Source: Gaiellales bacterium (GTDB lineage Bacteria > Actinomycetota > Thermoleophilia > Gaiellales > Gaiellaceae). From it: a stretch of 64,000 bases of DNA. Under the pieces are notes generated by a model, which saw only the letters and a list, made by a program, of their open reading frames with translations, made no database searches and had not been told where the DNA came from. The first letter of the stretch is position 1, and every line of letters starts with the position of its first letter. Positions 7,843 through 39,097 of this stretch are shown here, piece by piece. A program made the translations under genes and the position numbers. The stretch spans positions 7,202 through 71,201 of the forward strand of contig JBBRZA010000002.1 in the NCBI GenBank assembly GCA_038237145.1, read 5' to 3'.

Positions 7843-7849
7843 CCGCAGG

Positions 7850-7855: not shown

Positions 7856-7892
7856 CTTCCGGGGGTTCCGAGGCCTGATGGCGCCCTTCTAC

Positions 7893-7898
7893 TAGGCT
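7893..7898 (+). promoter_or_regulatory. -10-like hexamer TAGGCT, 8 nt upstream of GTG 7907
   Basis: Plus strand reads TAGGCT CGCACCCG GTG. Confidence 0.35.
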
Positions 7899-7906
7899 CG
7901 CACCCG

Positions 7907-12282: not shown

Positions 12283-12287
12283 AGGTC

Positions 12288-13349: not shown

Positions 13350-13472
13350 CCCCAAGACATGTCACTAAAGGAACACGTCCTCCGTTGGGTCAGGCCCCCC
13401 GCTCGGGACGTGACTGGTGTGACCGTGACCCGAAGAGCTGGGGTCAGAACCCCTGCCGTTCGGGACGTGACT
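13341..13472. repeat. intergenic repeat cluster: 3 copies of GGGGTC[T/A]G[A/G](A)CCCC about 50 bp apart, and 2 copies of CGGGACGTGACT
   Basis: The GGGGTC-type copies are at 13341-13353 (contains the GT4 stop TGA), 13387-13400 and 13440-13453. CGGGACGTGACT is at 13404-13415 and 13461-13472. CACGTCC (13374-13380) is inverted relative to GGACGTG (13406-13412). This is a locally AT-richer patch. Confidence 0.55.
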
Positions 13473-13473
13473 A

Positions 13474-13638
13474 ATGGAAATCGTCGCCGACGGCGAGACC
13501 GGACTGCTCGTCGCACCTGACGATCCAGGCCGCTACGGCGAGCTAGGCCGAGAACGCGCAGAGTCGGGGTTCAGCGTCGCGCGCATGGCCGATCGGACCC
13601 TGGCGCTCTACGAGCGCGCCGCCAGGGCGCCTTCGTAG
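13474..13638 (+). pseudogene. relic of a GT4 3' end (degenerate copy of the C-terminus of the 12288-13349 gene)
   Basis: The 54-codon ORF MEIVADGETGLLVAPDDPGRYGELGRERAESGFSVARMADRTLALYERAARAPS aligns to PEIVANGETGLLVPPDD[14-aa gap]PGNYGEQGRSRAQTQFSVARMTDRTLSLYETALRG of the upstream GT4 (about 13137-13325). No N-terminal GT domain is present. Confidence 0.6.
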
Positions 13639-14711
13639 AGCAGTTCCGTCCGGTCGGTGCAGCGCTCCTGCAGGAAGTGCTCGAGCGCGCGGCGGCGGCC
13701 GGCCTCGCCCATCTCCGCTGCACGCGACAGATCACCCGCGAGGTGCACGATCGCTTCCTCGAGCGGCTCTGCCTCTCCGGCAGGGACGAGTAGACCGGTG
13801 ACCCCGTCCTGGACGAGCTCGCCCAGACCACCGATCTCCGCCGCGATTACCGGTCGCGCGCGCTCCATCGCTTCGAGCGCGACCATGCCGAAGCCTTCGC
13901 CCATCGACGGAACGACGACGATCGCCGCCTCCTCGATCGCTTGCTGCACCGGCGCGACGTAGCCGAGGAATCGCACCGAGTCCCCGAGCTCGAGCTCTAT
14001 TGCCAGGGCACGTAGCGCCGGCTCCAACGGACCGTGCCCCGCGATGTGGAGTTGCAGATCGGGGATGCGCCTGCGAGCTGCGGCAAACGCACGCAGCAGC
14101 ACGATGTGACCTTTGATTGGAATCAAACGACCGACGCAAAGCAACACAGGCACACCACCGTCATAGGAACGGGGTGAACCGTTCGGCTCGATGCCGTAGT
14201 GCACGATCTCGAAGCTCGAACCGTCAAAGCCTTCGACCTCTTCGAGGTAGCGCGCAAGGCCGCGCGAGATTGCGATGTGCGTGTGGGCAAAGGTCGCGAT
14301 CGCACGGTCTCCGAGCGCAAAGCCGGGGTTCTCACGAAACTCGTTGAAGCCGTGCTTCGTCGACACACGAAGAGGCACCCCGGTCAACGCTCCGGCGAGC
14401 TGCCCGTAGACGTCCGCGTGCACGAGATGGGTGTGGAGAATCCTCGGTCGCCGGTGCGCGAGATACCCGGCGAGCCGCAGGAACGCGAACGGGTCGACGT
14501 CCGCCGCCAAAGAAATCGAGTCGAGAGGTACGCCGCGACTCCTCAGCTCGCGCGCAAAGTCCCAGGCGCCCGGCTCGTGCTCGTGCAGCATCAGGAAGCG
14601 GATGCCCCAGCCCCGCTCCTTCAGACGCGGCAGCAGTGAGAGCAGATGCGCCTCGGAGCCCGAGATCCCCGCCACCTTCTGCAGGTGCAGGACGGTTCGG
14701 TTCTGATTCAC
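13608..14711 (-). CDS. GT4 glycosyltransferase (paralog of 12288-13349)
   Basis: VLHLQKVAGISGSEAH, HTHLVHADVYG (shared with the paralog), EGFGMVALEAM...VTGLLVP. Confidence 0.85.
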   Translation of the reverse strand: MNQNRTVLHLQKVAGISGSEAHLLSLLPRLKERGWGIRFLMLHEHEPGAWDFARELRSRGVPLDSISLAADVDPFAFLRLAGYLAHRRPRILHTHLVHADVYGQLAGALTGVPLRVSTKHGFNEFRENPGFALGDRAIATFAHTHIAISRGLARYLEEVEGFDGSSFEIVHYGIEPNGSPRSYDGGVPVLLCVGRLIPIKGHIVLLRAFAAARRRIPDLQLHIAGHGPLEPALRALAIELELGDSVRFLGYVAPVQQAIEEAAIVVVPSMGEGFGMVALEAMERARPVIAAEIGGLGELVQDGVTGLLVPAGEAEPLEEAIVHLAGDLSRAAEMGEAGRRRALEHFLQERCTDRTELLYEGALAARS

Positions 14712-28143: not shown

Positions 28144-28902
28144 GTGCACGAACGACCGGACGACTGGGACCGGCATTGGGCCGAGTACGCAGCGGCCAAC
28201 GCGCAGAACCCGGCGCAGGCGTACCGCCGGCACCTGATCCTCGAGTTGCTGAGCTCGCTCGACGGGAGCAGCGAGCAGCGAGTACTCGACGTCGGGTCCG
28301 GGACGGGAGCCATGGCGACAGAGCTGCGGCGCAGGTTTCCCCACGCGGCCATCGTGGGCATCGAGCTGAGCCGCGAAGGCGTCGAGCGGGCACGCATCGC
28401 CGTCCCCAGCGCGACCTTCGTGCAGCGTGACCTGCTCAACGACTCGGAGGTCGAGCCCAGGCTGCGCGGCTGGGCGACGGCAGCGGTGTGCTCGGAGGTA
28501 TTGGAGCACGTCGATGAGCCGCAGCGCCTGCTGCGCGGCGTCGTGCCGTACCTCGAGCCGGGGTGCCGGCTGGTCGTGACCGTGCCGGGCGGTCCGATGT
28601 CTGCGTTCGACCGCAGCATCGGACACCGGCGCCACTTCACGCCCGACTCGCTCTCGCAGGTGCTGCGGGAGTCCGGCTTTCGAGTGGAACGCGCCCAACG
28701 CGCGGGCTTTCCCTTCTTCAACCTCTACCGGCTCGTCGTCATCGCACGAGGGAGGAAACTGACGCGTGACATCGGCAGCGGAAGCGCGACGGCAAGCACA
28801 GCGATGTCCGCGTTCGGCCACCTGTTCCAGCTCAACCTCGACCGCTCGCCGTTCGGATGGCAGATCGTTGCAACCGCGACTCTGCCAGAGCGAGGAGAGT
28901 GA
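28144..28902 (+). CDS. class I SAM-dependent methyltransferase
   Basis: Start GTG 28144 (VHERPDDWDRHWAEY). VLDVGSGTGAM motif I, SEVLEHVDEP, CRLVVTVPG. Confidence 0.75.
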   Translation: MHERPDDWDRHWAEYAAANAQNPAQAYRRHLILELLSSLDGSSEQRVLDVGSGTGAMATELRRRFPHAAIVGIELSREGVERARIAVPSATFVQRDLLNDSEVEPRLRGWATAAVCSEVLEHVDEPQRLLRGVVPYLEPGCRLVVTVPGGPMSAFDRSIGHRRHFTPDSLSQVLRESGFRVERAQRAGFPFFNLYRLVVIARGRKLTRDIGSGSATASTAMSAFGHLFQLNLDRSPFGWQIVATATLPERGE

Positions 28903-31688
28903 CAGTCCAGCCCCTCCCGCGTCTGCGCCCGACTCCTGGGGTTCGCGCAGCGCTGCTCGTCGCCTCGGCCGCGGTTTCCGCAGCGCTGGCTGGCCTCGTG
29001 TGGTCGCAACTCCCTGGGCGACTGAATGTCCACACCGACATCGTCGGGTATCCGATAGCCGGCGACTTCAACATCGAGCGCTACTTCTGGGCCTACGGCC
29101 TTGTCGCAGGTCTCTTCCCTTTCCTGACGCTTGCTCTCTACGTCATCGCGCGCCGAACAATCGCTCGCGGCCCGGCGAAGCCACTCGGGGTAATCGCGCT
29201 ACTCGACAAGCGCGCGCCAGCGGCGAGCGGAGACCGCGTCAGCCTCGCGGTCAGCGCCGGAAGCATCATCCTCGTAGGGATCGTTCTGGGCTTCGAGATC
29301 GCGATCGGTGGAGGTTGGCAGGACTTCGGCGGAATCGTCCTCGCCGTCACCGCGACTGCCTACGGCCTCTCCGTCGCCATAGGTGCCGCTGCCGCTACGG
29401 CGGGTCCGCTGCGTGGCCGCGAGCTCGACACAGTTCTCGCCGGCGTGAACGCTCTCCTTGCGACGTTGACCGTGCTCGGTCTGGCATGGGTCTCGTCAGG
29501 GACAAAGGTCACCGTCAGCTCGGACGGGACGGTGCATCACTATCCGTGGTTTCCATGGTGGCTTGGCGGGCTGCTCACGGCCGCCCTGCTCGCACTCGTC
29601 GCTCGCGCACTGCGAGGGTCGGTTCCGGCCAAGCGGGTCGAGCGCCGCCTCCTGCTCCTGATCGTCGTTCCGATGCTGCTCTTTCTCTTCCTCGCCGTGC
29701 TCCCGGGAGGAGCCGGCGACATGGACAGCTTCCACGAGGGTGAGCAGCTCGGCGCCGCGCACCTCACCGCGGCTGGACGTTTCCCGTGGCGCGACCTGCT
29801 CTTCATCCATGGACCCCTCGGCGACGTGCTTCAGCCCTTACTGAGCATGCACGTCTTCGGCGACACGCGCTGGGGCAACCTCGCAGGAGAGGCAGTGCTG
29901 GCCAAACCAGCCGCGGTGGTCGCGCTCTTCCTGCTCTGCGCCTACCTCTTCCGCGACAACTGGCTCTTCCTCGTCGGCACGCAGGTCGCGATTCTGACCG
30001 GTTGGGTTTTCACGTTCCAAGTCCAGAGCACCCGCCTCCTGTTCGTGCCTGTCGTACTCCTTCTGCTTGCGGCGCTCCTGCGACGGCCGACCTGGCCGAG
30101 GGGAATCGCATTTGCGACTCTCCTACTGACACAGGCGGTGCTTACGCCCGAAGGCAGTTACATGGTGCCCGCGTTTCTCGCCACCGTCGTGCTCTACGAG
30201 CTCGTACACCGTCAAGGCTTCGCACGTACGATTCGCTGCGCGGTAACGACAGCCATCCTCGGCGCCGGCTGGATCGTTTTCTTGGCCTCACAGCATGCGC
30301 TGGACGACTTCGTCTTTTACTACCGCACGTTCGCTCCGGGTCACGAGCTCACGGGCGGCCTCACGGTCGCGCTAGGCGAGGGCCAGACTCCCACGGCGTT
30401 CGGTGGGCATCTGTACTACGTCTTCGCGGCCGGGGCTCCGGTCGTGCTGGTGCTCCTCGCGATCTGGTATTTCGCCGCGCGGGCGCCGGATGCGCGGGCA
30501 ATCCCGGTGGACGACTGGGTAATGGGCTCGACAGCAGTCTTCGTGGGCTTCTTCTACGTCAAGTTCATCAGCCGCACCGATCACGTGTACCAACCGTTCG
30601 AGGCGGCTCTTCCCGTGCTCTTCTACGCGATCTACCGCGTCGTCTCTGCAGCGGAAGCATGGTTGGCGTCGCGCCGACCGTCCAAGCCACTGCCGCGCCA
30701 CACCGTGACGCTTCCGCTCCTGGTCGTGCTATTGCTCGGAGCTCCGACGAGCCTCCTGGCCCTCACCCGAGGAGTGCCATCGCATCTGGCCGCCTTCGCG
30801 CCCAGCGATCCACCCGTGGCCCGCGTCGGATACGTCCTGAATCGCGAGCCGCTCTTTCGCTCGGTCACTCCGGCGCCGGCCAAATCGGTCGGGCCGAATC
30901 TCGTCCACGACCTGCGCGCGGTCATGCGCGCCTACGTTCTTCCCGGCGAGCGCATCTTCGACTTCAGCAACAACCCGGGCCTCTTCTGGTACGTCCTGAG
31001 GCTCGATCCGGCAACGCGCTACTACCACGTCAGCATGGCGATTCGGCAGGAAACACAGCACGATCTCATCCGCGAGCTGCGAAAGGAGCAGCCCACGATC
31101 GTCGTCTTCGGGAGCGACTGGCTCGGACTTCCCGCGTGGGACGGGATCGCGAACGAGGTGCGCCACTATGACGTCAGCCGATACCTGCTCGACCACTACC
31201 GCCCGCTCCTGCACTCGCACGGGTTCCTCGTCTTCGCGCGCAACGACGTCTCCGTGCCGCCCGTCTCCAACCTTACGAGCAAGCTCGACGAACCGGCACA
31301 GACGACGAATCTCTATTTCCGCACGTTCCCCTGCGACTGGGGCTACTCGCCCGACTTCCTGACCATTCACCCGCAGTCGGACTCGGGCGCCGTGACGCTG
31401 CGGCCTGAGCATGGTGTCCTGCAGGTGCCTACAGGCCTTGCCGCGCACTTCGGCTGGCTCGAGGTCCAAGGGACATCGACGTTCAACCAGACCAGCTTCG
31501 AGCTCTCGGATCGCCGGGCTGCGAACTCGGACGAGCGTCGCACGATCCGCTTCAGGACGCGCGGCGGCACCGATACGGTGCGCGTCCAGGTCGGGTCGTG
31601 CAGCCAGTGGCACGGCTACCGCGGCCGCACGCTCTACCTCCGCGCGGATCCGCACCAGCCGATCCGCGCCGTGCGATTGCTGCGCTGA
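28899..31688 (+). CDS. large (about 929 aa) polytopic membrane protein of unknown function with a roughly 330-aa C-terminal soluble domain (candidate GT-C-type transferase/polymerase)
   Basis: GTG 28899 is in a GTGA overlap with the methyltransferase stop. There are more than 12 hydrophobic helices through about aa 600, then a hydrophilic domain (YYHVSMAIRQETQHDLIRELRKEQPTIVVFGSDW...). I recognise no family signature. Confidence 0.7.
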   Translation: MTVQPLPRLRPTPGVRAALLVASAAVSAALAGLVWSQLPGRLNVHTDIVGYPIAGDFNIERYFWAYGLVAGLFPFLTLALYVIARRTIARGPAKPLGVIALLDKRAPAASGDRVSLAVSAGSIILVGIVLGFEIAIGGGWQDFGGIVLAVTATAYGLSVAIGAAAATAGPLRGRELDTVLAGVNALLATLTVLGLAWVSSGTKVTVSSDGTVHHYPWFPWWLGGLLTAALLALVARALRGSVPAKRVERRLLLLIVVPMLLFLFLAVLPGGAGDMDSFHEGEQLGAAHLTAAGRFPWRDLLFIHGPLGDVLQPLLSMHVFGDTRWGNLAGEAVLAKPAAVVALFLLCAYLFRDNWLFLVGTQVAILTGWVFTFQVQSTRLLFVPVVLLLLAALLRRPTWPRGIAFATLLLTQAVLTPEGSYMVPAFLATVVLYELVHRQGFARTIRCAVTTAILGAGWIVFLASQHALDDFVFYYRTFAPGHELTGGLTVALGEGQTPTAFGGHLYYVFAAGAPVVLVLLAIWYFAARAPDARAIPVDDWVMGSTAVFVGFFYVKFISRTDHVYQPFEAALPVLFYAIYRVVSAAEAWLASRRPSKPLPRHTVTLPLLVVLLLGAPTSLLALTRGVPSHLAAFAPSDPPVARVGYVLNREPLFRSVTPAPAKSVGPNLVHDLRAVMRAYVLPGERIFDFSNNPGLFWYVLRLDPATRYYHVSMAIRQETQHDLIRELRKEQPTIVVFGSDWLGLPAWDGIANEVRHYDVSRYLLDHYRPLLHSHGFLVFARNDVSVPPVSNLTSKLDEPAQTTNLYFRTFPCDWGYSPDFLTIHPQSDSGAVTLRPEHGVLQVPTGLAAHFGWLEVQGTSTFNQTSFELSDRRAANSDERRTIRFRTRGGTDTVRVQVGSCSQWHGYRGRTLYLRADPHQPIRAVRLLR

Positions 31689-31689
31689 G

Positions 31690-32436
31690 CTACTTGCGGG
31701 CCGACAGGGTCGGTGTCGGCAGTGAGTAGTTCGCCGCCCGGGCGTCGTCGTGGAACATGCGGACCGTGTCGAGCGAGACTCCTTCGAGGTCGCGACCGAG
31801 CCACGGCAGCTTTGCGAGCAGCTGTTGCGTGACGGTGATCACATGACACCCGACCGCATCGGCGTGAAGGATGTTCAGGATCTCGCGCGGGCTTGCCCAG
31901 ATCAACTGCAGCTGCGGGTGCGCGCTGAGCACTCCCACAGCCTCCGCCATGATCGGGCTCGGATCTCGTCCGGTGTCGGCGATCCGCCCAGCGAAGACTG
32001 ACACGAAGCCGGCGGTGCAACCACTCAGCGCGGCTGCGATTTCCTCAACCTGGCGCACCGTGGTCAGCGCGGTGACGTTCAACCGAACGCCCTCGGCCAC
32101 CAGATGACGAACGACGTCGGCGGCAGACTCGCCGCGTGTGTTGGTTACGGGGACCTTCACGAAGACGTTCTGTCCCCACTGCGAAATGGTGCGCGCCTGC
32201 TGTTCCATCTCGCCGAAGTCATCGGAGAAGACCTCCAGCGAGATCGGCAGTTCGGGAACGAGCTCGACGATGTCACGCGCGAAGGCCTCGTAGTCTTCGA
32301 CGCCGGCCGCGCGCATCAGAGTCGGGTTCGTCGTGAAGCCGGAAACGACGGGATTGGTCGCCAGTTCCGCGATCGCGTTGCGATCGGCGCCGTCGGCGAA
32401 GATCTTCACGCGCAGGCGCTGGACCATCTCATTCAT
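31690..32436 (-). CDS. tal: transaldolase-family protein (short Tal/FSA type)
   Basis: Start ATG 32436 in an ATGA overlap with the gmhB stop. KIFADGAD...SGFTTNPTL, VFVKVPVT (Schiff-base Lys region), NVTALTT, SVFAGRIAD. Confidence 0.8.
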   Translation of the reverse strand: MNEMVQRLRVKIFADGADRNAIAELATNPVVSGFTTNPTLMRAAGVEDYEAFARDIVELVPELPISLEVFSDDFGEMEQQARTISQWGQNVFVKVPVTNTRGESAADVVRHLVAEGVRLNVTALTTVRQVEEIAAALSGCTAGFVSVFAGRIADTGRDPSPIMAEAVGVLSAHPQLQLIWASPREILNILHADAVGCHVITVTQQLLAKLPWLGRDLEGVSLDTVRMFHDDARAANYSLPTPTLSARK

Positions 32437-32984
32437 TGCGTCCCCGGTCCCCTGGTCGTCAGACGCAGAATCCACTCCGCCGCCTCCTCGAGATTCCTCA
32501 CTGTTGCATCGGGCTCGGACGCGATGGTCTCAGCGTAGCCCCGATCCACGAAGATCGCACGACACCCCGCGCGGTGCGCCGCCTCGACATCCCGCCAGCG
32601 GTCACCGACGAGAAAGCTGGTGGCGAGGTCGACCCTCCAGCGTTCCGCGGCGGCCAGCAGCAGGCCCGGTTGCGGCTTGCGGCAATCGCAGCCGTCGGCG
32701 TCGTCGTGAAGGCAGGCCGCGATCTCGTCCAGGGGCAGGCGCTCCTGCAACTCGGCGTGCATCTCTTCCACGGCCTCGGCGGTGAGAGTGCCACGCGCGA
32801 CGTCGGGCTGGTTCGTGACCACGATCAAGAAGAAGCCTGCTGCACGCAGCCGCTCGCACGCCCGCGCGACGCCCGGCAGGATTTGCAACTCCGCGAGGCT
32901 CCGCGCCGACTGCGGGACACCCTCGCGAACAGTCGAGTCCACGAGCACGCCGTCCCGGTCGAGGAAGACGGCGGAGCGGCTCAC
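32433..32984 (-). CDS. gmhB: D-glycero-D-manno-heptose 1,7-bisphosphate phosphatase (HAD-IIIA)
   Basis: GTG 32984 in a GTGA overlap. AVFLDRDGVL (DxDG nucleophile motif), VVTNQPDVARG, CDCRKPQPGLL, LVGDRWRDVEAA. Confidence 0.8.
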   Translation of the reverse strand: MSRSAVFLDRDGVLVDSTVREGVPQSARSLAELQILPGVARACERLRAAGFFLIVVTNQPDVARGTLTAEAVEEMHAELQERLPLDEIAACLHDDADGCDCRKPQPGLLLAAAERWRVDLATSFLVGDRWRDVEAAHRAGCRAIFVDRGYAETIASEPDATVRNLEEAAEWILRLTTRGPGTQ

Positions 32985-33958
32985 CGCGACTGCTGCCGCG
33001 TCTCCGCGACGAGCGCTTCGAGCGACTCGCGCAGCGCCTCGCGTGACGAACGCGTGCAACGCCAGCCGAGACCGTTGATCTTGTCGACCTGCAGGCGCAC
33101 GACCGGTACGTCTCCCCGCCAGCCGCGGTCGCCGCCGGTGAACTCGTACTCGACGGCATCCGGGCTGAGCCCGACTGCTTCGACCGCCAGGTCGGCGATC
33201 TCCGCAACGGTGATCTCGTCGCCGGTCGCGACGTTGTAGACGTCGTAGTCGCCGGGGCTCTCGCGATGCGCGAGCAGCACCGCCCCGATGACGTCGTGCA
33301 CGTGGATGTACGACTTGCGCTGCGAGCCGTCGCCGAGGATGCGCAGCCGGCTCGCATCCGCGAGGAGTGCGCGCGTAAAATCGAACCCGACGCCGTGCGT
33401 CTGGCGCGGGCCGACGACGTTGCCGAACCGAAACGACCGGCCGGTGAGCCCGAACATCGCGCAATACGCGGAGATGAGCGTTTCGCCGGCGAGCTTGCTC
33501 GAGCCGTAGGTCGAGATCGGCAACAGCGGGCCCCAGTCCTCGTCGATCGCGGTCTCGCCGAGGTCGCCGTAGACGCCGCTGCCGGAGGCGTAGAGGATAC
33601 GCGGCGTTTCGGTTACGCGCATCGCCTCGACCACGTTCTGCGTCAGCACCGTTCCCTGATCGAAGTCGATGGTCGGCTCGACCGCGGCGCGCGCGATGTC
33701 CGGATTCGAAGCGAGGTGCACGACGACGTCGTGCCCCCGCATGGCGTCGTTCAGCTTCTCGACGTCGACAACGTCCGCCCGGTGCACGGTCAGACGCTCG
33801 TCACCGTTGTGATGTGCGAGATGCCAGTCTCGTCCCGACGAGAAGTTGTCGTAGACCGTAACCCCCATGGCGCTCTCGTCGCCCAGCAAGCGGTCGACAA
33901 AATGGCTGCCGAGGAAGCCTGCGCCGCCGACGATGAACCAGCGCTCGCCGGCGCTCAT
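32981..33958 (-). CDS. NAD-dependent NDP-sugar epimerase/dehydratase (extended SDR)
   Basis: ATG 33958 in an ATGA overlap with the gmhA stop. [21 protein letters not shown] (YxxxK), RFGNVVGPRQ, ILGDGSQRKSYIHVHD. Confidence 0.8.
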   Translation of the reverse strand: MSAGERWFIVGGAGFLGSHFVDRLLGDESAMGVTVYDNFSSGRDWHLAHHNGDERLTVHRADVVDVEKLNDAMRGHDVVVHLASNPDIARAAVEPTIDFDQGTVLTQNVVEAMRVTETPRILYASGSGVYGDLGETAIDEDWGPLLPISTYGSSKLAGETLISAYCAMFGLTGRSFRFGNVVGPRQTHGVGFDFTRALLADASRLRILGDGSQRKSYIHVHDVIGAVLLAHRESPGDYDVYNVATGDEITVAEIADLAVEAVGLSPDAVEYEFTGGDRGWRGDVPVVRLQVDKINGLGWRCTRSSREALRESLEALVAETRQQSR

Positions 33959-34551
33959 CCCCGCGACTCCCACACGGGTGCGCTCTGCTGCAGCGCCGGA
34001 TGGGAGACGAGGAGGTGACAGATCACGGAGGCGAGTCCCTCGGTGTGCGGCGTGACGTGCTCCGGCACGAGCGGCGGGATCACCACGCAGGCGTGGGCAA
34101 TCTCCCGCGCGTAGCCACCGTCACGGCCGACGATCGCGAAGATCCGCGCGCCCACTTGACGAGCATGGTCCATCGCTGCGACGAGATTTGCGGAGAGGTT
34201 CCTCGCGACGCTGCCACCGCCGACGGAGAGGGCGAGGACGGCGTCACCGGAGCCGAGCCGCGAGCCGCGCAGCCACTCCACGTAGGCAGTGTCCCACCCG
34301 TCGTCGTTGACACGCGCGGTGAGCTCGGAGACGTTGTCGGTCGGCGCATACGTCTCGAAGCCGCAGAGCTTGCGGAAGTCGTTGACGGCATGACCGGCGT
34401 GCGCGGCCGAGCCCCCGACTCCGAGCACGAACAGCCTGCCGCCGGCGTCGCGCACGTCCGCGAGGCCGGCGGCGAGGCGCTCGATCGAGTCTGGATCGAG
34501 CTGACTTACGATCCGGCCGGTTTCCTCGAGATAGCTCTCGGAGAAGCTCAC
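33955..34551 (-). CDS. gmhA: sedoheptulose-7-phosphate isomerase (SIS domain)
   Basis: GTG 34551 in a GTGA overlap. LFVLGVGGSAAHAGHAVNDFRK, AYVEWL, DAVLALSVGGGS, IFAIVGRDGG, TPHTEGLASVICHLL. Confidence 0.8.
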   Translation of the reverse strand: MSFSESYLEETGRIVSQLDPDSIERLAAGLADVRDAGGRLFVLGVGGSAAHAGHAVNDFRKLCGFETYAPTDNVSELTARVNDDGWDTAYVEWLRGSRLGSGDAVLALSVGGGSVARNLSANLVAAMDHARQVGARIFAIVGRDGGYAREIAHACVVIPPLVPEHVTPHTEGLASVICHLLVSHPALQQSAPVWESRG

Positions 34552-35186
34552 GTCGGCATCCTGCAGGCCGCGAAGGTGTTGAGGCCGAACTTGTGCTTGT
34601 AGCACTCGATCTCGTGAAGCCTGAAGCCCGCCTGCGTGAGCAGCGGCAGGAGGTCACGAGGGTCGTAGTAGGTCTTGTGATCCCTGATCTCCTCGGCTGG
34701 GCTGAGGCCAAGCCGGAAGGCCGAGAACTCCAGGAACCGCTTGCCGCGCCACGATGGGACGTTGACGAGGCAGACGGCGCCGGGCGCAGCGACACGGCGC
34801 AGCTCGCGCAGCAGCGAGACCGGATCCCAGAGGTGCTCGAGCACGGAGATACACAGCACGACGTCCAGCGAGTCCTCCTCGACGCCTCCGACCGCTTCGG
34901 GCAGGGTGCCCTCGATCACAGTGACCCTTGGATCGGCTTTCAGATCCGGCGAAAGGGCGACGTCGACGAGCGTCGCGTGACTGACCTCATCGAGGACCGA
35001 GCGGACAAATCGCGCTTCGAACCCGCAGCCGAAGTCACCGAGCCGCAGGCCGGCGAAGTGCGTGACGTGCTTACGCAACGCGCGCGCCGAGAGCCAGACG
35101 CCGAACCGATCCACCGGCGTCAAAGGCCGATGCTGTCCGTATGCGCCTGTGCGTCCCGATGCTTCAGCGCTTGACGGCGAAGCCAT
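34548..35186 (-). CDS. class I SAM-dependent methyltransferase
   Basis: ATG 35186 lies 7 nt after the upstream stop. LGDFGCGFEA motif I, LDVVLCISVLEHLWDP, VCLVNVPS. Confidence 0.7.
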   Translation of the reverse strand: MASPSSAEASGRTGAYGQHRPLTPVDRFGVWLSARALRKHVTHFAGLRLGDFGCGFEARFVRSVLDEVSHATLVDVALSPDLKADPRVTVIEGTLPEAVGGVEEDSLDVVLCISVLEHLWDPVSLLRELRRVAAPGAVCLVNVPSWRGKRFLEFSAFRLGLSPAEEIRDHKTYYDPRDLLPLLTQAGFRLHEIECYKHKFGLNTFAACRMPT

Positions 35187-35193
35187 TGCCGGG

Positions 35194-36459
35194 CTACCCG
35201 CCGCCCACAACTGGCCGGCGTCGGGTCGTCGCGACGACAGCGCCGTGGAGCAGCAACGTGAAGACGAACAACTGAGCACCCAATAGGGCCAGGGCGACAC
35301 CGGTCAGCGCAAGGTGATTCGAAAGCGTGTCCGTCTGCTCGAGCTTGAAGCTGTTGCCGATGTATGTAGCAATCAGCGGAATCGCGAGCGCGATGCCCGC
35401 AACGACGAGCGCGAACGCGCTCAGCACGGTGCGGGTGTACGGGAAGATCCGCAGCCAACGCCGCTTCTCGCGACCGGTGTAGTCGAACAGCACGCGCGCG
35501 ATGCAGCCGAGGAAGAAAGCCTGAGCGCCGGCCGCCAACAGCGCGACGCCGAGAAGCTGCCAGTTGAGCGAAAGGCCGAGCCCGCCGAGCTGGACGTTCC
35601 CGAAGCTCAGCGGCACGGTCAGCAGCAGCCCGAGAATCATCAGCACGAGGCCCGGTTTGTAGACAAAGAACCCGGAGCCGTACACGAACATCGCGCGCAG
35701 GTTGATCCAGGCCGCCTTCCACGGCGACAGCCAGCCTGAGCGCCTGTGATGGCTCAACCGGCCCTCGCGGTCCTTCAGGAACCGCACCGGCACCTCCGTG
35801 GTCCGCAACTCCATCTGCACCGACTTGAGCGTCATCTCGGATGCGTACTCCCACGACTCGGAATGCAGGTCCATGCGCTCGAGAGCGTCGCGGGTGATCC
35901 CGCGCATGCCGCAATGGATGTCCGAGAAGCGGCTGCCGAAGACCCGGTTCAGGATCCAGGTCGTCACGGGAGTACCGAGATAGCGATGCAGGGCCGGCAT
36001 CGAGCCGGGCTCGATCGACCCGCGCCAGCGGGAGCCCATCACGAACTCGTAGCCGTCGTGGAAGCGCTCCACGAACGGTGCGAGCAGGCGGAAGTCATAG
36101 GTGCAGTCGGCGTCGCCCATCACGACGTAGCGTCCTCGCACGAAAGGCAGGGCATCGATGTATGCCCGGCCCAGCCCGCGCTTCGGCGTCTTCAGCACTC
36201 TCGCTCCGCGCTCCAGCGCGATCTCGGCCGTGCGGTCGCCCGAGCTGTCGACGATCAGGACCTCCCCCGCAACGCCCGCCTGCTCGAGGCCCTGCTTGCA
36301 CCAGTCGACGAACTCGCCGACCGTCAGCTCCTCGTTGAGCGCGGGAATGACGATCGAGAGCTGCGGATCGGCCACGTCCTCCTGCGGGACGAGTAGCCTG
36401 ACGTCGCCGCCCTCGGCCGGATTCGGGGCCGTTACGATCTGCTGCTCCAGCCGCGCCAC
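35194..36459 (-). CDS. GT2 glycosyltransferase with C-terminal 4-TM domain (polyprenyl-phosphate sugar synthase-like; paralog of 60277-61449)
   Basis: LSIVIPALNEELTVG, LIVDSSGDRT, VVMGDADCTYD, MGSRWRG, DIHCGMRGI, then hydrophobic helices. Confidence 0.85.
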   Translation of the reverse strand: MARLEQQIVTAPNPAEGGDVRLLVPQEDVADPQLSIVIPALNEELTVGEFVDWCKQGLEQAGVAGEVLIVDSSGDRTAEIALERGARVLKTPKRGLGRAYIDALPFVRGRYVVMGDADCTYDFRLLAPFVERFHDGYEFVMGSRWRGSIEPGSMPALHRYLGTPVTTWILNRVFGSRFSDIHCGMRGITRDALERMDLHSESWEYASEMTLKSVQMELRTTEVPVRFLKDREGRLSHHRRSGWLSPWKAAWINLRAMFVYGSGFFVYKPGLVLMILGLLLTVPLSFGNVQLGGLGLSLNWQLLGVALLAAGAQAFFLGCIARVLFDYTGREKRRWLRIFPYTRTVLSAFALVVAGIALAIPLIATYIGNSFKLEQTDTLSNHLALTGVALALLGAQLFVFTLLLHGAVVATTRRRPVVGGG

Positions 36460-36479
36460 GGCGGACAGTTAACCAGTCC

Positions 36480-37460
36480 ATGCTGATCACTCGTACACCG
36501 CTCCGGATCTCGATCGGCGGCGGCGGAACCGACCTCGCCTCGTACTACTCGCGGCACGGCGGCTTCGTCATCTCCGCCGCGATCGACAGACACGTCTATA
36601 TCGCCATCAACCGGACGTTCACCGATGACTACTTCCTGAAGTACGCCGCGCTCGAGCGTGTCAACGGCATCGACGAGATCGAGCATCCGATCATCCGGAC
36701 GGCCCTCCAACTCCATCCCGTCGGGCCGTCGCTGGAGATCGTCAGCGTGGCGGACATCCCGGCGGGAACAGGCCTCGGCTCGTCCGGCACGTTCACGGTC
36801 GGGCTCCTGCGCGCGCTGCACGCATACAAGCGCGAGCCCGTGACGCCTGGCGACCTCGCAGAGGAGGCCTGTCACATCGAGATCGATCTGCTCGATCGTC
36901 CCGCGGGCAAGCAGGATCAGTACATCGCCTCGTTCGGCGGGATCACCTGCTTCCAGATCGAGCCCGATGGGCGCGTGCACGTGTCGCCGCTCAACATCAG
37001 CACCTCGACGCTGCACGATCTCGAAGAGCATCTGCTGATGTTCTTCACGGGCTACTCGCGCCGTGCAGAGGAGCTGCTCGACGATCAGCGTCAGCGCACC
37101 GAAGCGGGTGACGAGATCATGATCGGCGCGATGCGCGCTGTTGAGCAAATCGGCGTTGAGATACGCACAGCGCTCGAGGAGGGCGCCACCGCCGACTTCG
37201 GCGAGCTGATGCACGAGCACTGGGTGCGAAAGCGTGAGCGCTCAAAGGGAATGTCGCGACCTGAGATCGACGATGCGTACGACGCAGCGATCGCGAACGG
37301 CGCGCTCGGCGGCAAGCTCACCGGCGCCGGCGGCGGCGGCTTCCTCGTCGTGTACGCAGCCGACCCCAAGGCGGTGCGCAAGAAGATGTCGGAACTGGGG
37401 CTCCCGGAGGTGAGGTTCGGCTTCGACCACGACGGGTCGACGCTGCTCGTCCGTGAGTGA
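36480..37460 (+). CDS. hddA: GHMP-family sugar kinase, D-glycero-alpha-D-manno-heptose 7-phosphate kinase type
   Basis: TRTPLRISIGGGGTDL, DIPAGTGLGSSGTFTVGL (GHMP motif II), GKQDQY, GGKLTGAGGGGFL (motif III). Confidence 0.8.
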   Translation: MLITRTPLRISIGGGGTDLASYYSRHGGFVISAAIDRHVYIAINRTFTDDYFLKYAALERVNGIDEIEHPIIRTALQLHPVGPSLEIVSVADIPAGTGLGSSGTFTVGLLRALHAYKREPVTPGDLAEEACHIEIDLLDRPAGKQDQYIASFGGITCFQIEPDGRVHVSPLNISTSTLHDLEEHLLMFFTGYSRRAEELLDDQRQRTEAGDEIMIGAMRAVEQIGVEIRTALEEGATADFGELMHEHWVRKRERSKGMSRPEIDDAYDAAIANGALGGKLTGAGGGGFLVVYAADPKAVRKKMSELGLPEVRFGFDHDGSTLLVRE

Positions 37461-38148
37461 GTGCGTCATCCTCGCCGGCGGGGTCGCGTCGCGACTCGGG
37501 GCGCAAGCCGGCGACCTGCCGAAGACGCTCGTCCCCGTCGGAGGCCGCCCGTTCGCCGACCACCAGCTGACGTGGCTCGCGGAGCAGGGTGTCGGCGAAG
37601 TCGTCTACTGCATCGGCTACCGCGGCGACCAGATCCGCGACTACGTCGGCGAGGGCGAGCGCTGGGGGTTGAACGTGACGTATGTCGACGAAGGCGCCGA
37701 CCTGCGCGGAACCGGCGGAGCTCTGCGCCTGGCCTACGACGATGGGGTTTTGGCCGAGAGCTATGCAGTGCTCTACGGCGATTCCTATCTGGACGTGGAT
37801 CTCCCACGCGTCCACGAGGCATTTCGTGCATCGGAGCAGCCCGCGCTGATGACCGTCCTCAGGAACGAACGGAGGTGGGACAAGAGCAATGCCGACTTCG
37901 ATGGAGCGCTCGTGACCCGCTATTCCAAGACGGAGGGAGCCTTCGAGTGGATCGACTACGGCCTCTCCGTCCTGACGCGCAACATCGCGAGCGAGATCCC
38001 AAACGACGAACCTGCGGACCTCGCGGAGCTCTACACGCGACTCAGCGGCGAGGGGCGGCTCGCCGGCTTCGAGGTGACTGAGCGCTTCTACGAGATCGGC
38101 TCGCCGAACGGACTCGCCGAGCTCGAGCGCTTCCTCGGCTCAGCTTAG
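37453..38148 (+). CDS. hddC: sugar-1-phosphate nucleotidyltransferase, D-glycero-alpha-D-manno-heptose 1-phosphate guanylyltransferase type
   Basis: GTG 37453 overlaps the hddA end. ILAGGVASRLG...PKTLVPVGGRPF (GxGxR NTP-transferase motif), GTGGAL, YGDSYLD, FYEIGSP. Confidence 0.75.
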   Translation: MSECVILAGGVASRLGAQAGDLPKTLVPVGGRPFADHQLTWLAEQGVGEVVYCIGYRGDQIRDYVGEGERWGLNVTYVDEGADLRGTGGALRLAYDDGVLAESYAVLYGDSYLDVDLPRVHEAFRASEQPALMTVLRNERRWDKSNADFDGALVTRYSKTEGAFEWIDYGLSVLTRNIASEIPNDEPADLAELYTRLSGEGRLAGFEVTERFYEIGSPNGLAELERFLGSA

Positions 38149-38155
38149 GGCCGCG

Positions 38156-39097
38156 TTAACGGAGGTCTTTGTTCGACTCCATGTCGAACCACATGGCGAA
38201 CAGCGTGAACTGCGAACCGAAGATCAGCAACAACGCAACGAGCACGACGGTGCCCACCGACACGGCGTTGCCCATGAACCGCAGGACCACTTCCGCGATG
38301 CCGAGCCCCAGGCCGAGCAGGGTCATCAGGAAGCCGAAGGCGTAGAAGAAGACGAGCGGGTGGAAGTCCCGGATCACGTACTTCTCGCGCATCCGCCAGA
38401 AGAAGCCCTTCACGAGGAGCCACGAGATACGCGGAATGACCTTCCGGATCTTGATGCCCGACTGCTCGCCGACGCCGTAGACCGGACGCGACGGGATGTC
38501 CCGCACCCTTGCGTTCCACACGTTCAGATGGACGAGCATGTCGTTCGGCATCCCGTAGCCGGGATAGATCCGGTCGAGGTCGAGCTGCTCGAGAATCTCG
38601 CGGCTGGCCGCCGTGTACCCCGACTGCGAGTCGGCGACGTGCCAGTACCCCGACGCGATCTTCGTCAGCAACGAGAGAACCGCATTGCCGAGGTAACGGG
38701 AGCGCGGGATCACGCGCCAGGCTTCCCCCGAGATGAGACGGTTCGCCTTGGCGTACTCGAGCTCGCCCCGCGCGACCGGGAGGGCGATCTTCTTCAGATC
38801 GGTCGGATCCATCTGGTTGTCGGCAGCCATCACGCAGACAACCTCGCTCCCCTCGACGAGTGCACGCTGGTACCCCGTCACGATCGCCGCGCCGACCCCG
38901 GAGTTGCGTTCGTGCGTCACCACCTCGACGCGCGGGTCTCCGGCGGCGCGGGCGGCTGCCGCAGTGCCGTCGCGGGACGCGTCGTCGACGACGAAGATCC
39001 GGTCGACGAAATCAGGGACGCCCTGGATGGTCGTCGCGACGAGCGTTTCTTCGTCGTAGGCGGGAACGACCACCGCCACCGTCTTGCCTTCCAGCAT
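38156..39097 (-). CDS. GT2 glycosyltransferase with 2 C-terminal TM helices (GtrB-like)
   Basis: VAVVVPAYDEE, FVVDDASRDGT, MAADNQMDP, SQSGY, and the C-terminal helices FFYAFGFLMTLLGLGLG / VVLVALLLIFGSQF. Confidence 0.85.
   Translation of the reverse strand: MLEGKTVAVVVPAYDEETLVATTIQGVPDFVDRIFVVDDASRDGTAAAARAAGDPRVEVVTHERNSGVGAAIVTGYQRALVEGSEVVCVMAADNQMDPTDLKKIALPVARGELEYAKANRLISGEAWRVIPRSRYLGNAVLSLLTKIASGYWHVADSQSGYTAASREILEQLDLDRIYPGYGMPNDMLVHLNVWNARVRDIPSRPVYGVGEQSGIKIRKVIPRISWLLVKGFFWRMREKYVIRDFHPLVFFYAFGFLMTLLGLGLGIAEVVLRFMGNAVSVGTVVLVALLLIFGSQFTLFAMWFDMESNKDLR

What the first reader, a model, noticed from the sequence alone, without database searches (positions are those of the whole stretch)
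31690..38148. Complete GDP-D-glycero-alpha-D-manno-heptose pathway with a translationally coupled, dedicated transaldolase
Seen: gmhA (SIS isomerase), hddA (GHMP kinase rather than the ribokinase-type HldE), gmhB (HAD phosphatase) and hddC (nucleotidyltransferase) lie within 6.5 kb. The minus-strand run epimerase, gmhB, tal, preceded by gmhA, is chained by ATGA/GTGA overlaps, and the transaldolase start overlaps the gmhB stop. Established: the GmhA-HddA-GmhB-HddC combination makes GDP-activated alpha-heptose, as used for S-layer glycoprotein glycans in Aneurinibacillus and for Campylobacter capsules, rather than the ADP-heptose of LPS cores. Inference: the extra transaldolase-family gene supplies or balances sedoheptulose-7-phosphate for the pathway. 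That would be an unusual metabolic addition inside a heptose operon in an actinobacterial-type genome.
Basis: partly seen in the sequence, partly recalled or inferred. Interest (0 to 1): 0.6.

Follow-up and report, generated by a model that had tools for sequence, protein, structure and literature searches.

The report
Transaldolase-primed seven/eight-carbon surface-sugar cassette
An uncultured actinobacterium carries a tightly packed, widely conserved gene set that starts with its own transaldolase and probably builds an activated eight-carbon (possibly seven-carbon) sugar for the cell surface; several of its enzymes are closer to those that make the eight-carbon sugar of lincomycin than to the textbook heptose pathway.

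Summary
Isomerase, GHMP kinase, HAD phosphatase, nucleotidyltransferase, epimerase and a transaldolase (Tal) lie at 31690-38148. The minus-strand genes are chained by ATGA/GTGA overlaps.

- None of the four "heptose" enzymes reaches the curated cut-off for GmhA, HddA, GmhB or HddC.
- The genome already has a full pentose-phosphate operon, so this Tal is an extra copy.
- Tal is not an odd addition. The whole cassette recurs at 45-77% identity in Dormibacterota, Solirubrobacter and other actinobacteria, once with phosphatase and Tal fused. In one variant a lincomycin-type Tal replaces it.

I fetched real celesticetin and lincomycin-type clusters for comparison. In trees, the phosphatase, nucleotidyltransferase and epimerase group with LmbK/O/M, apart from Tal-less heptose clusters. 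The isomerase shares two insertions with LmbN/CcbN that all 12 Tal-less GmhA-like enzymes lack. The kinase does not follow this pattern.

Best reading (about 0.55): a lincosamide-type GDP-octose module. Its product is epimerised, probably O-methylated, loaded on polyprenyl phosphate by the adjacent GT2, and transferred outside the membrane by a 943-aa GT-C-like protein. Heptose remains a serious rival (about 0.3). The cassette is uncharacterised in the literature searched.

The parts
31690..32436 (-). Small transaldolase of the TIGR02134 subfamily, an extra paralogue. Its ATG overlaps the phosphatase stop (ATGA).
   Evidence: PF00923; TIGR02134 315.6 bits, above the cut-off of 281.95; aligned to 3s0c and 1vpx, the Asp, Asn, Glu, Lys (Schiff base), Thr, Phe, Arg and Ser/Arg residues are all of the Tal type, not the FSA type; a canonical tal_mycobact Tal sits elsewhere, on C39. 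One search shows the overlap.
32433..32984 (-). HAD-IIIA sugar-bisphosphate phosphatase (GmhB/LmbK-like). Its GTG overlaps the epimerase stop (GTGA).
   Evidence: TIGR01656 139 bits; GmhB models score below their cut-offs; 49-50% identity to the CcbK/LmbK-type proteins; clan with the lincosamide enzymes, support 98/95*.
32981..33958 (-). Extended SDR, NDP-sugar epimerase type (LmbM-like). Its ATG overlaps the SIS stop (ATGA).
   Evidence: PF01370; the sequence has ASGSGVYG and YGSSK motifs and no Asp-Glu dehydratase pair; 41-42% identity to CcbM/LmbM-type proteins; clade with the lincosamide enzymes, support 99/98*.
33955..34551 (-). SIS-domain ketose-phosphate isomerase of the LmbN/CcbN type, not the GmhA type. 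Its GTG overlaps the methyltransferase stop.
   Evidence: TIGR00441 41 bits against a cut-off of 209. GmhA structures match only at E 4e-8; two insertions are shared with CcbN, the LmbN-type protein and L085, and are absent from 12 Tal-less GmhA-like enzymes.
34548..35186 (-). Class I SAM methyltransferase, conserved in the cassette.
   Evidence: Methyltransf_23/11/12; 55-69% identical copies at the same position in L001, L019 and L022, and 56% in L004.
35194..36459 (-). GT2 with a C-terminal transmembrane domain: a polyprenyl-phosphate sugar synthase-like enzyme. First gene of the minus-strand operon.
   Evidence: PF00535; the best NCBIfam matches are AglJ and dolichyl-phosphate hexose transferase, both below their cut-offs; homologues are tagged GT2_TM_C; 66-77% identical in five cassettes.
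36480..37460 (+). GHMP-family anomeric sugar-phosphate kinase (HddA/LmbP-like), divergent from the GT2 gene with a 20-nt spacer.
   Evidence: GHMP N and C domains; NF049969 156 bits against a cut-off of 600; best structures are 3k85, WcbL (4usk) and the C. jejuni HddA (4n3o), E about 1e-45; the tree places it with kinases of Tal-less intermediate clusters, not with LmbP.
37453..38148 (+). Sugar-1-phosphate nucleotidyltransferase (LmbO/HddC-like, probably GTP-dependent).
   Evidence: HddC model 68 bits against a cut-off of 300; best structure is Yersinia HddC (6jq8), E 8e-19; in a clade with the lincosamide LmbO-type enzymes (99/97-98*), with Yersinia HddC outside.
28144..28902 (+). Second class I SAM methyltransferase of the cassette. 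Its stop overlaps a possible GTG start of the large membrane protein.
   Evidence: Methyltransf_23 69 bits; 52-57% identical copies lie inside the cassettes of L001 and L019. Searches give the sequence.
28857..31688 (+). 943-aa polytopic membrane protein with a GT-C-like fold: the candidate extracytoplasmic transferase. Convergent with Tal, 1 nt apart.
   Evidence: no Pfam match; 954 representatives in the family. AlphaFold model with pLDDT 90 and pTM 0.90; the top 17 PDB matches are all GT-C enzymes (AftA, STT3, EmbB, ArnT), probability about 1 but E 3e-3 to 9e-2; a 33% identical homologue sits next to the cassette in L004.
38156..39097 (-). Second GT2 with membrane segments (Dpm1/AglJ-like). 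Its link to the cassette is uncertain.
   Evidence: PF00535; AglJ and PpgS models score below their cut-offs. It is not conserved next to the cassette in the other loci.

Best explanation
The locus is one copy of a widespread, uncharacterised cassette that makes a nucleotide-activated higher-carbon sugar, starting from its own transaldolase. It then hands the sugar to a lipid carrier for glycosylation outside the membrane.

Proposed steps:
1. Tal transfers a dihydroxyacetone unit from fructose-6-P (or sedoheptulose-7-P) to an aldose phosphate. The most likely acceptor is ribose-5-P, giving octulose-8-P as LmbR does.
2. The LmbN-type SIS enzyme isomerises the ketose phosphate to the aldose phosphate.
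3. The GHMP kinase phosphorylates C1.
4. The HAD enzyme removes the terminal phosphate.
5. The nucleotidyltransferase makes the GDP-sugar.
6. The LmbM-type SDR epimerises it.
7. The GT2 with a membrane domain loads it on polyprenyl phosphate.
8. One or both methyltransferases O-methylate it, at an unknown stage.
9. The 943-aa GT-C-like protein attaches it to an envelope acceptor.

Shown here: gene content, translational coupling, conservation, Tal catalytic residues, and the relatedness of four enzymes to the lincosamide ones.

Inferred: every substrate, the carbon number (C8 preferred over C7), GDP as the nucleotide, the lipid-carrier step and the acceptor.
For: Coupling and conservation:
- Four ATGA/GTGA overlaps chain the minus-strand genes.
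- The cassette GT2-TM / MT / SIS / SDR / HAD / Tal / (MT) / GHMP / NTase recurs at 45-77% identity in a Logan assembly, a Dormibacterota MAG, Solirubrobacter, and two genomes of the window's own phylum.
- One variant fuses HAD and Tal into a single 429-aa protein.

Tal is dedicated and needed:
- The genome has tkt plus a canonical tal-pgi-gnd-zwf operon.
- It has no other SIS, GHMP or HAD-IIIA paralogue.
- In L066, the closest cassette variant (SIS 54%, kinase 51%, HAD 52% identity), Tal belongs to a different subfamily. It groups with LmbR/CcbR (88/86) and shares their SL[LF]W.R, GS[IV]R and VTVPP motifs. The activity has been kept while the gene was replaced.
- Of 20 HddA-like neighbourhoods fetched from the phylum, only L066 and a lincosamide-type block (L085) have a Tal.

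Comparison with real lincosamide clusters:
- L086 is the ccb cluster. Its gene lengths match the published table (PMC4351081 supplement).
- L087 is an lmb-type cluster.
- Nucleotidyltransferase: cassette plus lincosamide enzymes form one clan at 99/97*, with Yersinia HddC and all Tal-less clusters on the other side. This holds when rooted with paralogues (99/98*).
- HAD: 98/95*, and 49-50% identity.
- SDR: 99/98*.
- SIS: a 6-residue insertion in the phosphate-binding loop (FSV[GH]GG...) and a 4-residue insertion near the C terminus are present in 10 of 10 Tal-associated enzymes. These are 7 cassette enzymes plus CcbN, the LmbN-type protein and L085. Both insertions are absent from 12 of 12 Tal-less GmhA-like enzymes, including B. 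pseudomallei GmhA.

Delivery: the GT2 resembles AglJ and dolichyl-P hexose transferases. The 943-aa protein models confidently and matches only GT-C enzymes at the top of the list.
Against: - The kinase does not group with LmbP/CcbP. A 95/97* split puts it with kinases of Tal-less clusters, and the lincosamide kinases on the canonical side.
- The SIS sequence tree itself is unresolved. Only the indels link it to LmbN.
- Our Tal belongs to TIGR02134, not the LmbR subfamily. Its closest non-cassette relatives (44% identity) sit beside a PTS permease in a catabolic setting. It keeps the catalytic Glu where LmbR/CcbR have Gln. Nothing in its sequence points to ribose-5-P as acceptor.
- AU tests could not exclude a placement of the lincosamide-type block just outside the cassette clade (p 0.10-0.24).
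- The comparison set of Tal-less clusters comes from one phylum, plus three partial PDB sequences.
- LmbL, LmbZ and LmbS are absent, so the product is not lincosamine.
- No GtrA-type flippase lies in the window.
- The GT-C assignment rests on weak Foldseek E-values.
- No chemistry was measured.
Confidence: 0.55

Rival explanations
1. The cassette makes a GDP-activated heptose (D-glycero-alpha-D-manno-heptose or an epimer). The dedicated Tal only supplies or channels sedoheptulose-7-P (fructose-6-P + erythrose-4-P) into the isomerase.
For: - The nearest solved structures are heptose enzymes: kinase 3k85, WcbL and C. jejuni HddA at E about 1e-45; Yersinia HddC at 8e-19; GmhA at 4e-8.
- The kinase clusters with kinases of Tal-less clusters, which must use sedoheptulose-7-P from central metabolism.
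- Tal has a complete classical Tal active site, with Glu and Phe. It passes the curated cut-off of TIGR02134, a family annotated as an ordinary transaldolase.
- Heptoses are well known in surface glycans. Octoses are not.
Against: - The organism already has tkt and a canonical Tal.
- All 18 of the fetched HddA-like neighbourhoods that are neither cassette-like nor lincosamide-type manage without a Tal.
- A mere supply enzyme would not be expected to stay translationally coupled, become fused to the phosphatase, and be replaced by an LmbR-type Tal in a sister cassette.
- All four heptose equivalog models score far below their cut-offs.
- The SIS enzyme carries LmbN-type indels that every GmhA lacks.
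- HAD, NTase and SDR group with the octose enzymes.
Confidence: 0.32
2. The cassette makes another Tal-derived sugar. One option is a nonose built on a hexose-6-P acceptor. Another is a heptose or octose with non-manno, non-gluco stereochemistry set by the divergent isomerase. The nucleotide might not be GDP.
For: - Tal enzymes accept several aldose phosphates (established knowledge).
- The isomerase differs from both GmhA and LmbN at catalytic-region positions. It has Asp for the GmhA Glu and a distinct C-terminal motif.
- The nucleotidyltransferase scores best against MurU among the NCBIfam models (88 bits).
Against: There is no positive evidence for any specific alternative acceptor. The closest relatives of the nucleotidyltransferase, LmbO and HddC, both use GTP according to the literature cited.
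Confidence: 0.1
3. Tal is functionally unrelated to the sugar-nucleotide genes. It would be a housekeeping or catabolic paralogue that merely sits at the operon end.
For: TIGR02134-type Tals occur without any cassette, beside a PTS permease and a DeoR regulator, in three genomes of the phylum.
Against: - The ATGA overlap with the phosphatase gene.
- The same position in five cassettes from different phyla.
- A HAD-Tal fusion protein.
- A canonical Tal elsewhere in the genome.
Confidence: 0.03

Closest known systems
Lincosamide GDP-octose module of Streptomyces lincolnensis / S. caelestis (LmbR/CcbR Tal, LmbN/CcbN isomerase, LmbP kinase, LmbK phosphatase, LmbO guanylyltransferase, LmbM epimerase)
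   Same: - The six enzyme activities and protein sizes match: ours are 248/198/326/183/231/325 aa and Ccb are 222/202/323/185/232/325 aa.
- HAD, NTase and SDR form well-supported clans with the Lmb/Ccb proteins.
- The SIS enzyme shares two indels with LmbN/CcbN.
- Identities are 33-50%.
   Different: - Tal belongs to another subfamily (TIGR02134) and keeps Glu where LmbR has Gln.
- The kinase does not group with LmbP.
- LmbL, LmbZ and LmbS (dehydration and amination) are absent, as is the condensation machinery.
- The cassette is instead joined to a polyprenyl-P-type GT2, two methyltransferases and a GT-C-like protein. It therefore serves the envelope, not an antibiotic.
GDP-D-glycero-alpha-D-manno-heptose pathway (GmhA, HddA/WcbL, GmhB, HddC) of Aneurinibacillus S-layer glycan, Campylobacter and Burkholderia capsules, and Yersinia O-antigen
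   Same: The same four enzyme superfamilies and reaction order. The best solved structural relatives of the kinase and nucleotidyltransferase are from this pathway.
   Different: - All four curated equivalog cut-offs are missed by wide margins.
- The isomerase has two insertions and an Asp-for-Glu change that GmhA lacks.
- HddC and the GmhB-like enzymes of Tal-less clusters fall on the other side of strong branches.
- That pathway has no Tal.
Three-component lipid-carrier glycosylation systems (GtrB/GtrA/GtrC, CsbB/GtcA/YfhO, ArnC/ArnT, PpgS/Rv3779)
   Same: - A GT2 of the Dpm1/AglJ type sits beside a large polytopic protein whose model matches GT-C enzymes.
- Related cassettes carry YfhO-like or GtrA-like genes at the corresponding place.
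   Different: - The membrane protein belongs to no Pfam family and is not detectably YfhO.
- No flippase gene lies in the window.
- The cargo would be a C7 or C8 sugar rather than a hexose, GlcNAc or aminoarabinose.
TIGR02134 small transaldolases (Staphylococcus/Coxiella type)
   Same: Passes the curated cut-off (315.6 against 281.95 bits) and has all Tal catalytic residues.
   Different: Here it is an extra copy beside a canonical Tal, and it is embedded in and translationally coupled to a sugar-nucleotide operon.

Membership tests
GDP-D-glycero-alpha-D-manno-heptose pathway | GmhA-type sedoheptulose-7-P isomerase | tested here: not met
   TIGR00441 scores 41 bits against a cut-off of 209. 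Two insertions are absent from all 12 GmhA-like comparators, and Asp replaces the GmhA catalytic Glu.
GDP-D-glycero-alpha-D-manno-heptose pathway | HddA-type heptose-7-P 1-kinase | tested here: inconclusive
   NF049969 scores 156 bits against a cut-off of 600. However, the best structures are heptose kinases at E 1e-45, and the tree places the kinase with kinases of Tal-less clusters.
GDP-D-glycero-alpha-D-manno-heptose pathway | GmhB (alpha) 7-phosphatase and HddC guanylyltransferase orthology | tested here: not met
   NF050049 scores 63 against 250, and NF049965 scores 68 against 300. In the trees both enzymes fall with LmbK/LmbO-type proteins, apart from Tal-less GmhB and HddC enzymes including Yersinia HddC.
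GDP-D-glycero-alpha-D-manno-heptose pathway | Product is a heptose made from sedoheptulose-7-P | not testable with these tools
   Needs enzymology or glycan analysis.
Lincosamide-type GDP-octose module (LmbR/N/P/K/O/M) | Pathway-dedicated transaldolase in the operon | tested here: met
   ATGA coupling, conservation in five cassettes, a HAD-Tal fusion, and an extra canonical Tal elsewhere.
Lincosamide-type GDP-octose module (LmbR/N/P/K/O/M) | Tal orthologous to LmbR/CcbR | tested here: not met
   Our Tal lies in the TIGR02134 clade, at 32-34% identity to CcbR/LmbR-type proteins. It lacks their SLLW.R, GS[IV]R and VTVPP motifs and their Gln. The sister cassette L066 does carry an LmbR-type Tal.
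Lincosamide-type GDP-octose module (LmbR/N/P/K/O/M) | LmbN-type isomerase | tested here: met
   Two shared insertions, in 10 of 10 Tal-associated enzymes against 0 of 12 Tal-less ones. Identity is 33-36% to the CcbN/LmbN-type proteins against 28% to GmhA. The sequence tree alone is unresolved.
Lincosamide-type GDP-octose module (LmbR/N/P/K/O/M) | LmbK-, LmbO- and LmbM-type phosphatase, guanylyltransferase and epimerase | tested here: met
   Clans with the Lmb/Ccb proteins at 98/95*, 99/97* and 99/98*. NTase and SDR were also rooted with paralogues.
Lincosamide-type GDP-octose module (LmbR/N/P/K/O/M) | LmbP-type kinase | tested here: not met
   A 95/97* split separates the cassette kinases from the LmbP/CcbP clade.
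Lincosamide-type GDP-octose module (LmbR/N/P/K/O/M) | Octulose-8-P / GDP-octose as intermediates | not testable with these tools
   Needs an in vitro assay with ribose-5-P against erythrose-4-P, and the mass of the product.
Three-component lipid-carrier glycosylation | Polyprenyl-phosphate glycosyltransferase (GT2, GtrB/Dpm1 type) | tested here: inconclusive
   PF00535 is present. The best NCBIfam models are AglJ (119 against 325) and dolichyl-P hexose transferase (78 against 375), both below their cut-offs. Homologues carry the GT2_TM_C tag.
Three-component lipid-carrier glycosylation | GT-C fold transferase | tested here: inconclusive
   The model has pLDDT 90. The top 17 PDB matches are all GT-C enzymes, with probability about 1 but E 3e-3 to 9e-2 and TM 0.3-0.48. 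There is no Pfam match.
Three-component lipid-carrier glycosylation | GtrA-type flippase in the locus | tested here: not met
   The only PF04138 match in the genome is on contig C4, not in the window.
TIGR02134 transaldolase | Score above the curated cut-off, and Tal catalytic residues | tested here: met
   315.6 against 281.95 bits. The Lys, Glu, Asp, Asn, Thr, Phe and Arg residues are conserved.

The most novel reading that the evidence does not exclude
Eight-carbon sugars made by a transaldolase-initiated, lincosamide-like route are a widespread but unrecognised component of bacterial cell envelopes. In this reading the cassette makes a GDP-octose, which is epimerised, O-methylated, carried on polyprenyl phosphate and attached outside the membrane by a new family of GT-C enzymes. 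The lincomycin sugar pathway would then be a specialised offshoot of this primary envelope pathway.
Probability: 0.45. Interest if true: 0.8.

Novelty: new variant of a known kind. Interest (0 to 1): 0.62.

Why it matters
Apart from Kdo-type acids and a few branched sugars, straight-chain octoses are known in bacteria almost only from lincosamide antibiotics (my own knowledge, not checked here). The Tal of this cassette has thousands of close homologues in soil and other metagenomes, and the cassette recurs across at least two phyla.

If the cassette makes an octose, three things follow:
- A whole class of envelope glycans has been overlooked.
- Many genes now annotated as "GDP-heptose pathway" are misnamed.
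- The evolutionary source of the lincomycin sugar pathway becomes visible.

Even if the product is a heptose, the finding still defines two things. One is a distinct, uncharacterised enzyme set with an LmbN-type isomerase and an obligatory Tal. The other is a large unannotated family of GT-C-like membrane proteins.

The question can be tested directly with four or five purified enzymes and a mass spectrometer.

Tried and rejected
1. Fetching the S. lincolnensis lmb cluster from genome contigs with primer-derived sequences from PMC4351081 Table S1. Real ccb and lmb-type clusters were later reached indirectly, through homologues of the L085 isomerase.

2. A test in organisms without transketolase. 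If the cassette occurred in methanogens that cannot make erythrose-4-P, heptose would be excluded. I obtained a Methanobacterium handle through the HMfB histone. However, 329 Methanobacteriota genomes contain neither a TIGR02134 Tal nor a cassette-type kinase. The test could not be made.

3. AU tests of "L085 on the Tal-less side". These were poorly posed for unrooted trees and non-significant (p 0.10-0.24). They were replaced by outgroup rooting and by adding real Lmb/Ccb sequences.

4. L085 as the celesticetin cluster itself: rejected. No CcbJ match in the PDB, a different gene order around the Z and P genes, and no carrier-protein domain. It is a third lincosamide-type sugar block.

5. The 943-aa protein as a YfhO relative: hhalign probability 9%; no Pfam hit in 42 family members.

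6. FSA rather than Tal: rejected. The protein has Glu and Phe, not Gln and Tyr.

7. Literature searches for tal + hddA + gmhA, for octulose-8-P + nucleotidyltransferase, and for GDP-octose outside lincosamides found no description of the cassette.

8. Earlier AI notes of this scan reach a similar "C7 or C8, Lmb-like" reading. I treated them as leads only.

Full report
**1. What is in the sequence**

Six genes form a minus-strand operon in a 68% G+C window (ORFs; families):
- GT2 with a C-terminal membrane domain, 35194-36459
- SAM methyltransferase, 34548-35186
- SIS isomerase, 33955-34551
- extended SDR epimerase, 32981-33958
- HAD-IIIA phosphatase, 32433-32984
- small transaldolase (Tal), 31690-32436

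Divergent from it, after a 20-nt spacer, lie a GHMP kinase (36480-37460) and a nucleotidyltransferase (37453-38148).

The junctions were read directly:
- methyltransferase/SIS: GTGA
- SIS/epimerase: ATGA
- epimerase/phosphatase: GTGA
- phosphatase/Tal: ATGA

Upstream, convergent with Tal, lie a second methyltransferase (28144-28902) and a 943-aa membrane protein (28857-31688). The surrounding 25 kb is a surface-glycan island with a Wzy-like gene, GT4 genes, further SDRs and an ATP-grasp enzyme.

**2. Are these the heptose enzymes?**

Not by the curated models. Scores against cut-offs:

| Model | Score (bits) | Cut-off (bits) |
|---|---|---|
| GmhA | 41 | 209 |
| HddA | 156 | 600 |
| alpha-GmhB | 63 | 250 |
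| HddC | 68 | 300 |
| Tal, TIGR02134 | 315.6 | 281.95 |

Only Tal passes its family cut-off.

Among solved structures, the kinase and nucleotidyltransferase are nearest to heptose enzymes. These are 3k85, WcbL and C. jejuni HddA at about 1e-45, and Yersinia HddC at 8e-19. The isomerase matches GmhA only at 4e-8. No lincosamide sugar enzyme appeared among the PDB matches, so this comparison cannot choose between the two pathways.

Tal is a true transaldolase, not a fructose-6-P aldolase. Aligned to the Thermoplasma and Thermotoga enzymes it keeps Asp, Asn, Glu, the Schiff-base Lys, Thr, Phe and the phosphate-binding Arg and Ser/Arg.

**3. Is the Tal needed for precursor supply?**

The assembly (3.3 Mb, 94% complete) has a second Tal of the canonical actinobacterial type, in a tal-pgi-gnd-zwf operon divergent from tkt. 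Sedoheptulose-7-P is therefore available without the cluster Tal.

The genome has no other GmhA-like, HddA-like or HAD-IIIA gene. The genome belongs to Actinomycetota. It is labelled "same phylum" as G394, whose isomerase is 96% identical to a Streptomyces protein.

**4. The cassette is conserved, and Tal is its constant**

Long contigs carrying 65-66% identical Tals all carry the whole set: GT2-TM, (MT), SIS, SDR, HAD, Tal, (MT), GHMP, NTase. They also carry a large membrane protein, or in one case a GtrA-like gene. These loci are a Logan assembly, a Dormibacterota MAG and Solirubrobacter. Two genomes of the window's own phylum have the same set. Identities are 45-77%.

In the Logan locus, HAD and Tal are one 429-aa protein.

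Within the phylum the distribution is patchy. A TIGR02134-type Tal is present in 6 of 401 sampled genomes. Three have the cassette. The other three have the Tal beside a PTS permease and a DeoR regulator, without any cassette gene.

**5. Comparison with Tal-less clusters and with real lincosamide clusters**

Seventy-five of the 401 genomes have an HddA-like kinase. I fetched 20 of those neighbourhoods. Only two have a Tal within about 10 kb.

- L066 is a close cassette variant (SIS 54%, kinase 51%, HAD 52%, NTase 46% identity). Its Tal is of a different subfamily.
- L085 comes from a 9.5-Mb Streptomyces genome. Its nine genes are Tal, DegT aminotransferase, NTase, GHMP, GFO/IDH/MocA oxidoreductase, SIS, SDR, UDP-glucose-dehydrogenase-like and HAD. 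They stand in the order of lmbR-S-O-P-Z-N-M-L-K. The order and direction of the lmb genes were taken from PMC4351081 and its primer table.

Searching with the L085 isomerase led to two genuine clusters.
- L086 has gene lengths that reproduce the published celesticetin table: R 222, S 386, O 232, P 323, C 505, E 274, F 416, N 202, M 325, J 256.
- L087 is an lmb-type cluster in Streptomyces sp. CAU 1734, running from the LmbC-like adenylation enzyme to the LmbV-like MDMPI protein. Its LmbZ-type and LmbM-type termini resemble the S. lincolnensis peptides deduced from the primers.

**6. Trees and indels**

In these trees, the "Tal-less" group also contains the partial PDB anchor sequences. Results with the lincosamide sequences added:

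| Enzyme | Result | Support |
|---|---|---|
| Nucleotidyltransferase | cassette + lincosamide on one side; all Tal-less enzymes, including Yersinia HddC, on the other | 99/97* |
| Phosphatase | cassette + lincosamide | 98/95* |
| Epimerase | cassette + lincosamide + one Tal-less cluster (L068) | 99/98* |
| Isomerase | unresolved | none |
| Kinase | cassette with Tal-less "intermediate" clusters; LmbP/CcbP with the canonical side | 95/97* |

Before the real Lmb/Ccb sequences were added, I rooted two trees with paralogues from the window's genome. In both, the lincosamide-type block L085 stayed inside the cassette clade: the nucleotidyltransferase tree at 99/98* and the epimerase tree at 99/98*.

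The isomerase alignment shows two rare changes. One is a 6-residue insertion in the phosphate-binding loop: FSVGGG...S.NLV in the cassette and FSVHGG...S.NL in CcbN, the LmbN-type protein and L085, against STSG.S.N in GmhA. The other is a 4-residue insertion before a TP.[TI]E motif. Both are present in all 10 Tal-associated isomerases. Both are absent from all 12 Tal-less ones, including B. pseudomallei GmhA.

The kinase is the exception. The only hint the other way is a short deletion that the cassette and lincosamide kinases share relative to the canonical ones.

Pairwise identities agree with the trees:

| Enzyme | Identity to Lmb/Ccb-type proteins | Identity to heptose-pathway anchor |
|---|---|---|
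| Phosphatase | 49-50% | not compared |
| Epimerase | 41-42% | not compared |
| Isomerase | 33-36% | 28% (GmhA) |
| Nucleotidyltransferase | 33-35% | 27% (HddC) |
| Kinase | 29-33% | 31% (3k85) |

**7. The Tal itself**

Our Tal is in the TIGR02134 clade, together with the PTS-context enzymes. The Tal of the sister cassette L066 groups with LmbR/CcbR (88/86) and shares their motifs. An otherwise orthologous cassette has therefore exchanged one Tal subfamily for another. That argues the Tal reaction is integral to the pathway.

It does not say which acceptor our Tal uses. LmbR/CcbR also differ from ours at the catalytic Glu position, where they have Gln.

**8. Delivery**

The first gene of the operon is a GT2 of the AglJ / dolichyl-P hexose transferase kind.

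The 943-aa protein:
- belongs to a family of about 950 representative sequences with no Pfam model;
- is not detectably YfhO;
- gives a confident model, with pLDDT 90 and pTM 0.90;
- has as its best 17 PDB matches only GT-C enzymes (AftA, STT3, EmbB, ArnT), at weak E-values.

Related cassettes carry YfhO-like or GtrA-like genes at the same place. This fits a three-component scheme of lipid-carrier loading, flipping and extracytoplasmic transfer. No flippase gene is in the window.

**9. Verdict**

- [quoted passage not shown] is only partly right.
- The better description is a conserved, uncharacterised, Tal-primed sugar-nucleotide cassette. Its isomerase (by indels), phosphatase, nucleotidyltransferase and epimerase (by trees) are nearest to the lincosamide GDP-octose enzymes. 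The cassette is wired to a lipid-carrier glycosylation module.
- My odds are octose about 0.55, heptose about 0.3, another sugar about 0.1.
- Nothing here measures chemistry. The carbon number is an inference from relatedness, and from the argument that a redundant supply enzyme would not be kept, fused and replaced.

Earlier AI notes of this scan had proposed the same idea for related loci.

Noticed in passing
L085 (G394:C17:150001-170000), genes at about 5843-13912, minus strand: A third lincosamide-type sugar block (R-S-O-P-Z-N-M-L-K order) in a 9.5-Mb Streptomyces genome. It has no carrier-protein domain on N or Z and no NRPS-like condensation genes in the fetched 20 kb. It is flanked by an ABC transporter and a second DegT/GFO pair. 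This may be an undescribed amino-octose natural product or glycan. Its isomerase family has only 48 members in the big protein collection.
   Followed up: partly
L086 / L087 / L085 Tal genes: CcbR, the LmbR-type protein and the L085 Tal all have Gln at the position of the catalytic Glu of classical small transaldolases (Glu60 in Thermoplasma). They also have Leu-Trp in place of Phe-Val next to the conserved Arg. That is partly FSA-like, and may relate to their unusual ribose-5-P acceptor.
   Followed up: no
L019 (G145:C6:131844-132795): In this cassette the GHMP kinase is found in two pieces in different frames, joining at about 132211. This could be a frameshifted pseudogene or an assembly error, in an otherwise intact cassette.
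   Followed up: no
L020 (G285:C28:7545-12694), also G297 and G385: TIGR02134-type transaldolases, in two copies, flank a galactitol/ascorbate-type PTS EIIC and a DeoR regulator in 2.2-Mb genomes of the same phylum. This is a catabolic context, quite unlike the cassette.
   Followed up: partly
window 28857-31688: The 943-aa membrane protein defines a large family (954 representatives at E<=1e-3) with no Pfam model. Invariant residues include P310, H318, G319, D323, W339, R573, D575 and H576. It has a beta-rich C-terminal domain of about 300 aa, and the predicted fold matches GT-C enzymes.
   Followed up: partly
window 36460-36479: Only 20 nt separate the divergent start codons of the GT2 gene and the kinase gene. 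Both transcripts would have to be leaderless or nearly so, unless one start lies further in.
   Followed up: no
window 31688-31690: The convergent stop codons of the GT-C-like gene and Tal are separated by a single base, with no room for a terminator hairpin.
   Followed up: no
L001 10001-11290 (protein P0113): A natural HAD phosphatase-transaldolase fusion (429 aa) occurs in a cassette from several sequencing runs. In the same locus the large membrane protein is YfhO/DUF6044-like rather than of the window's family.
   Followed up: partly
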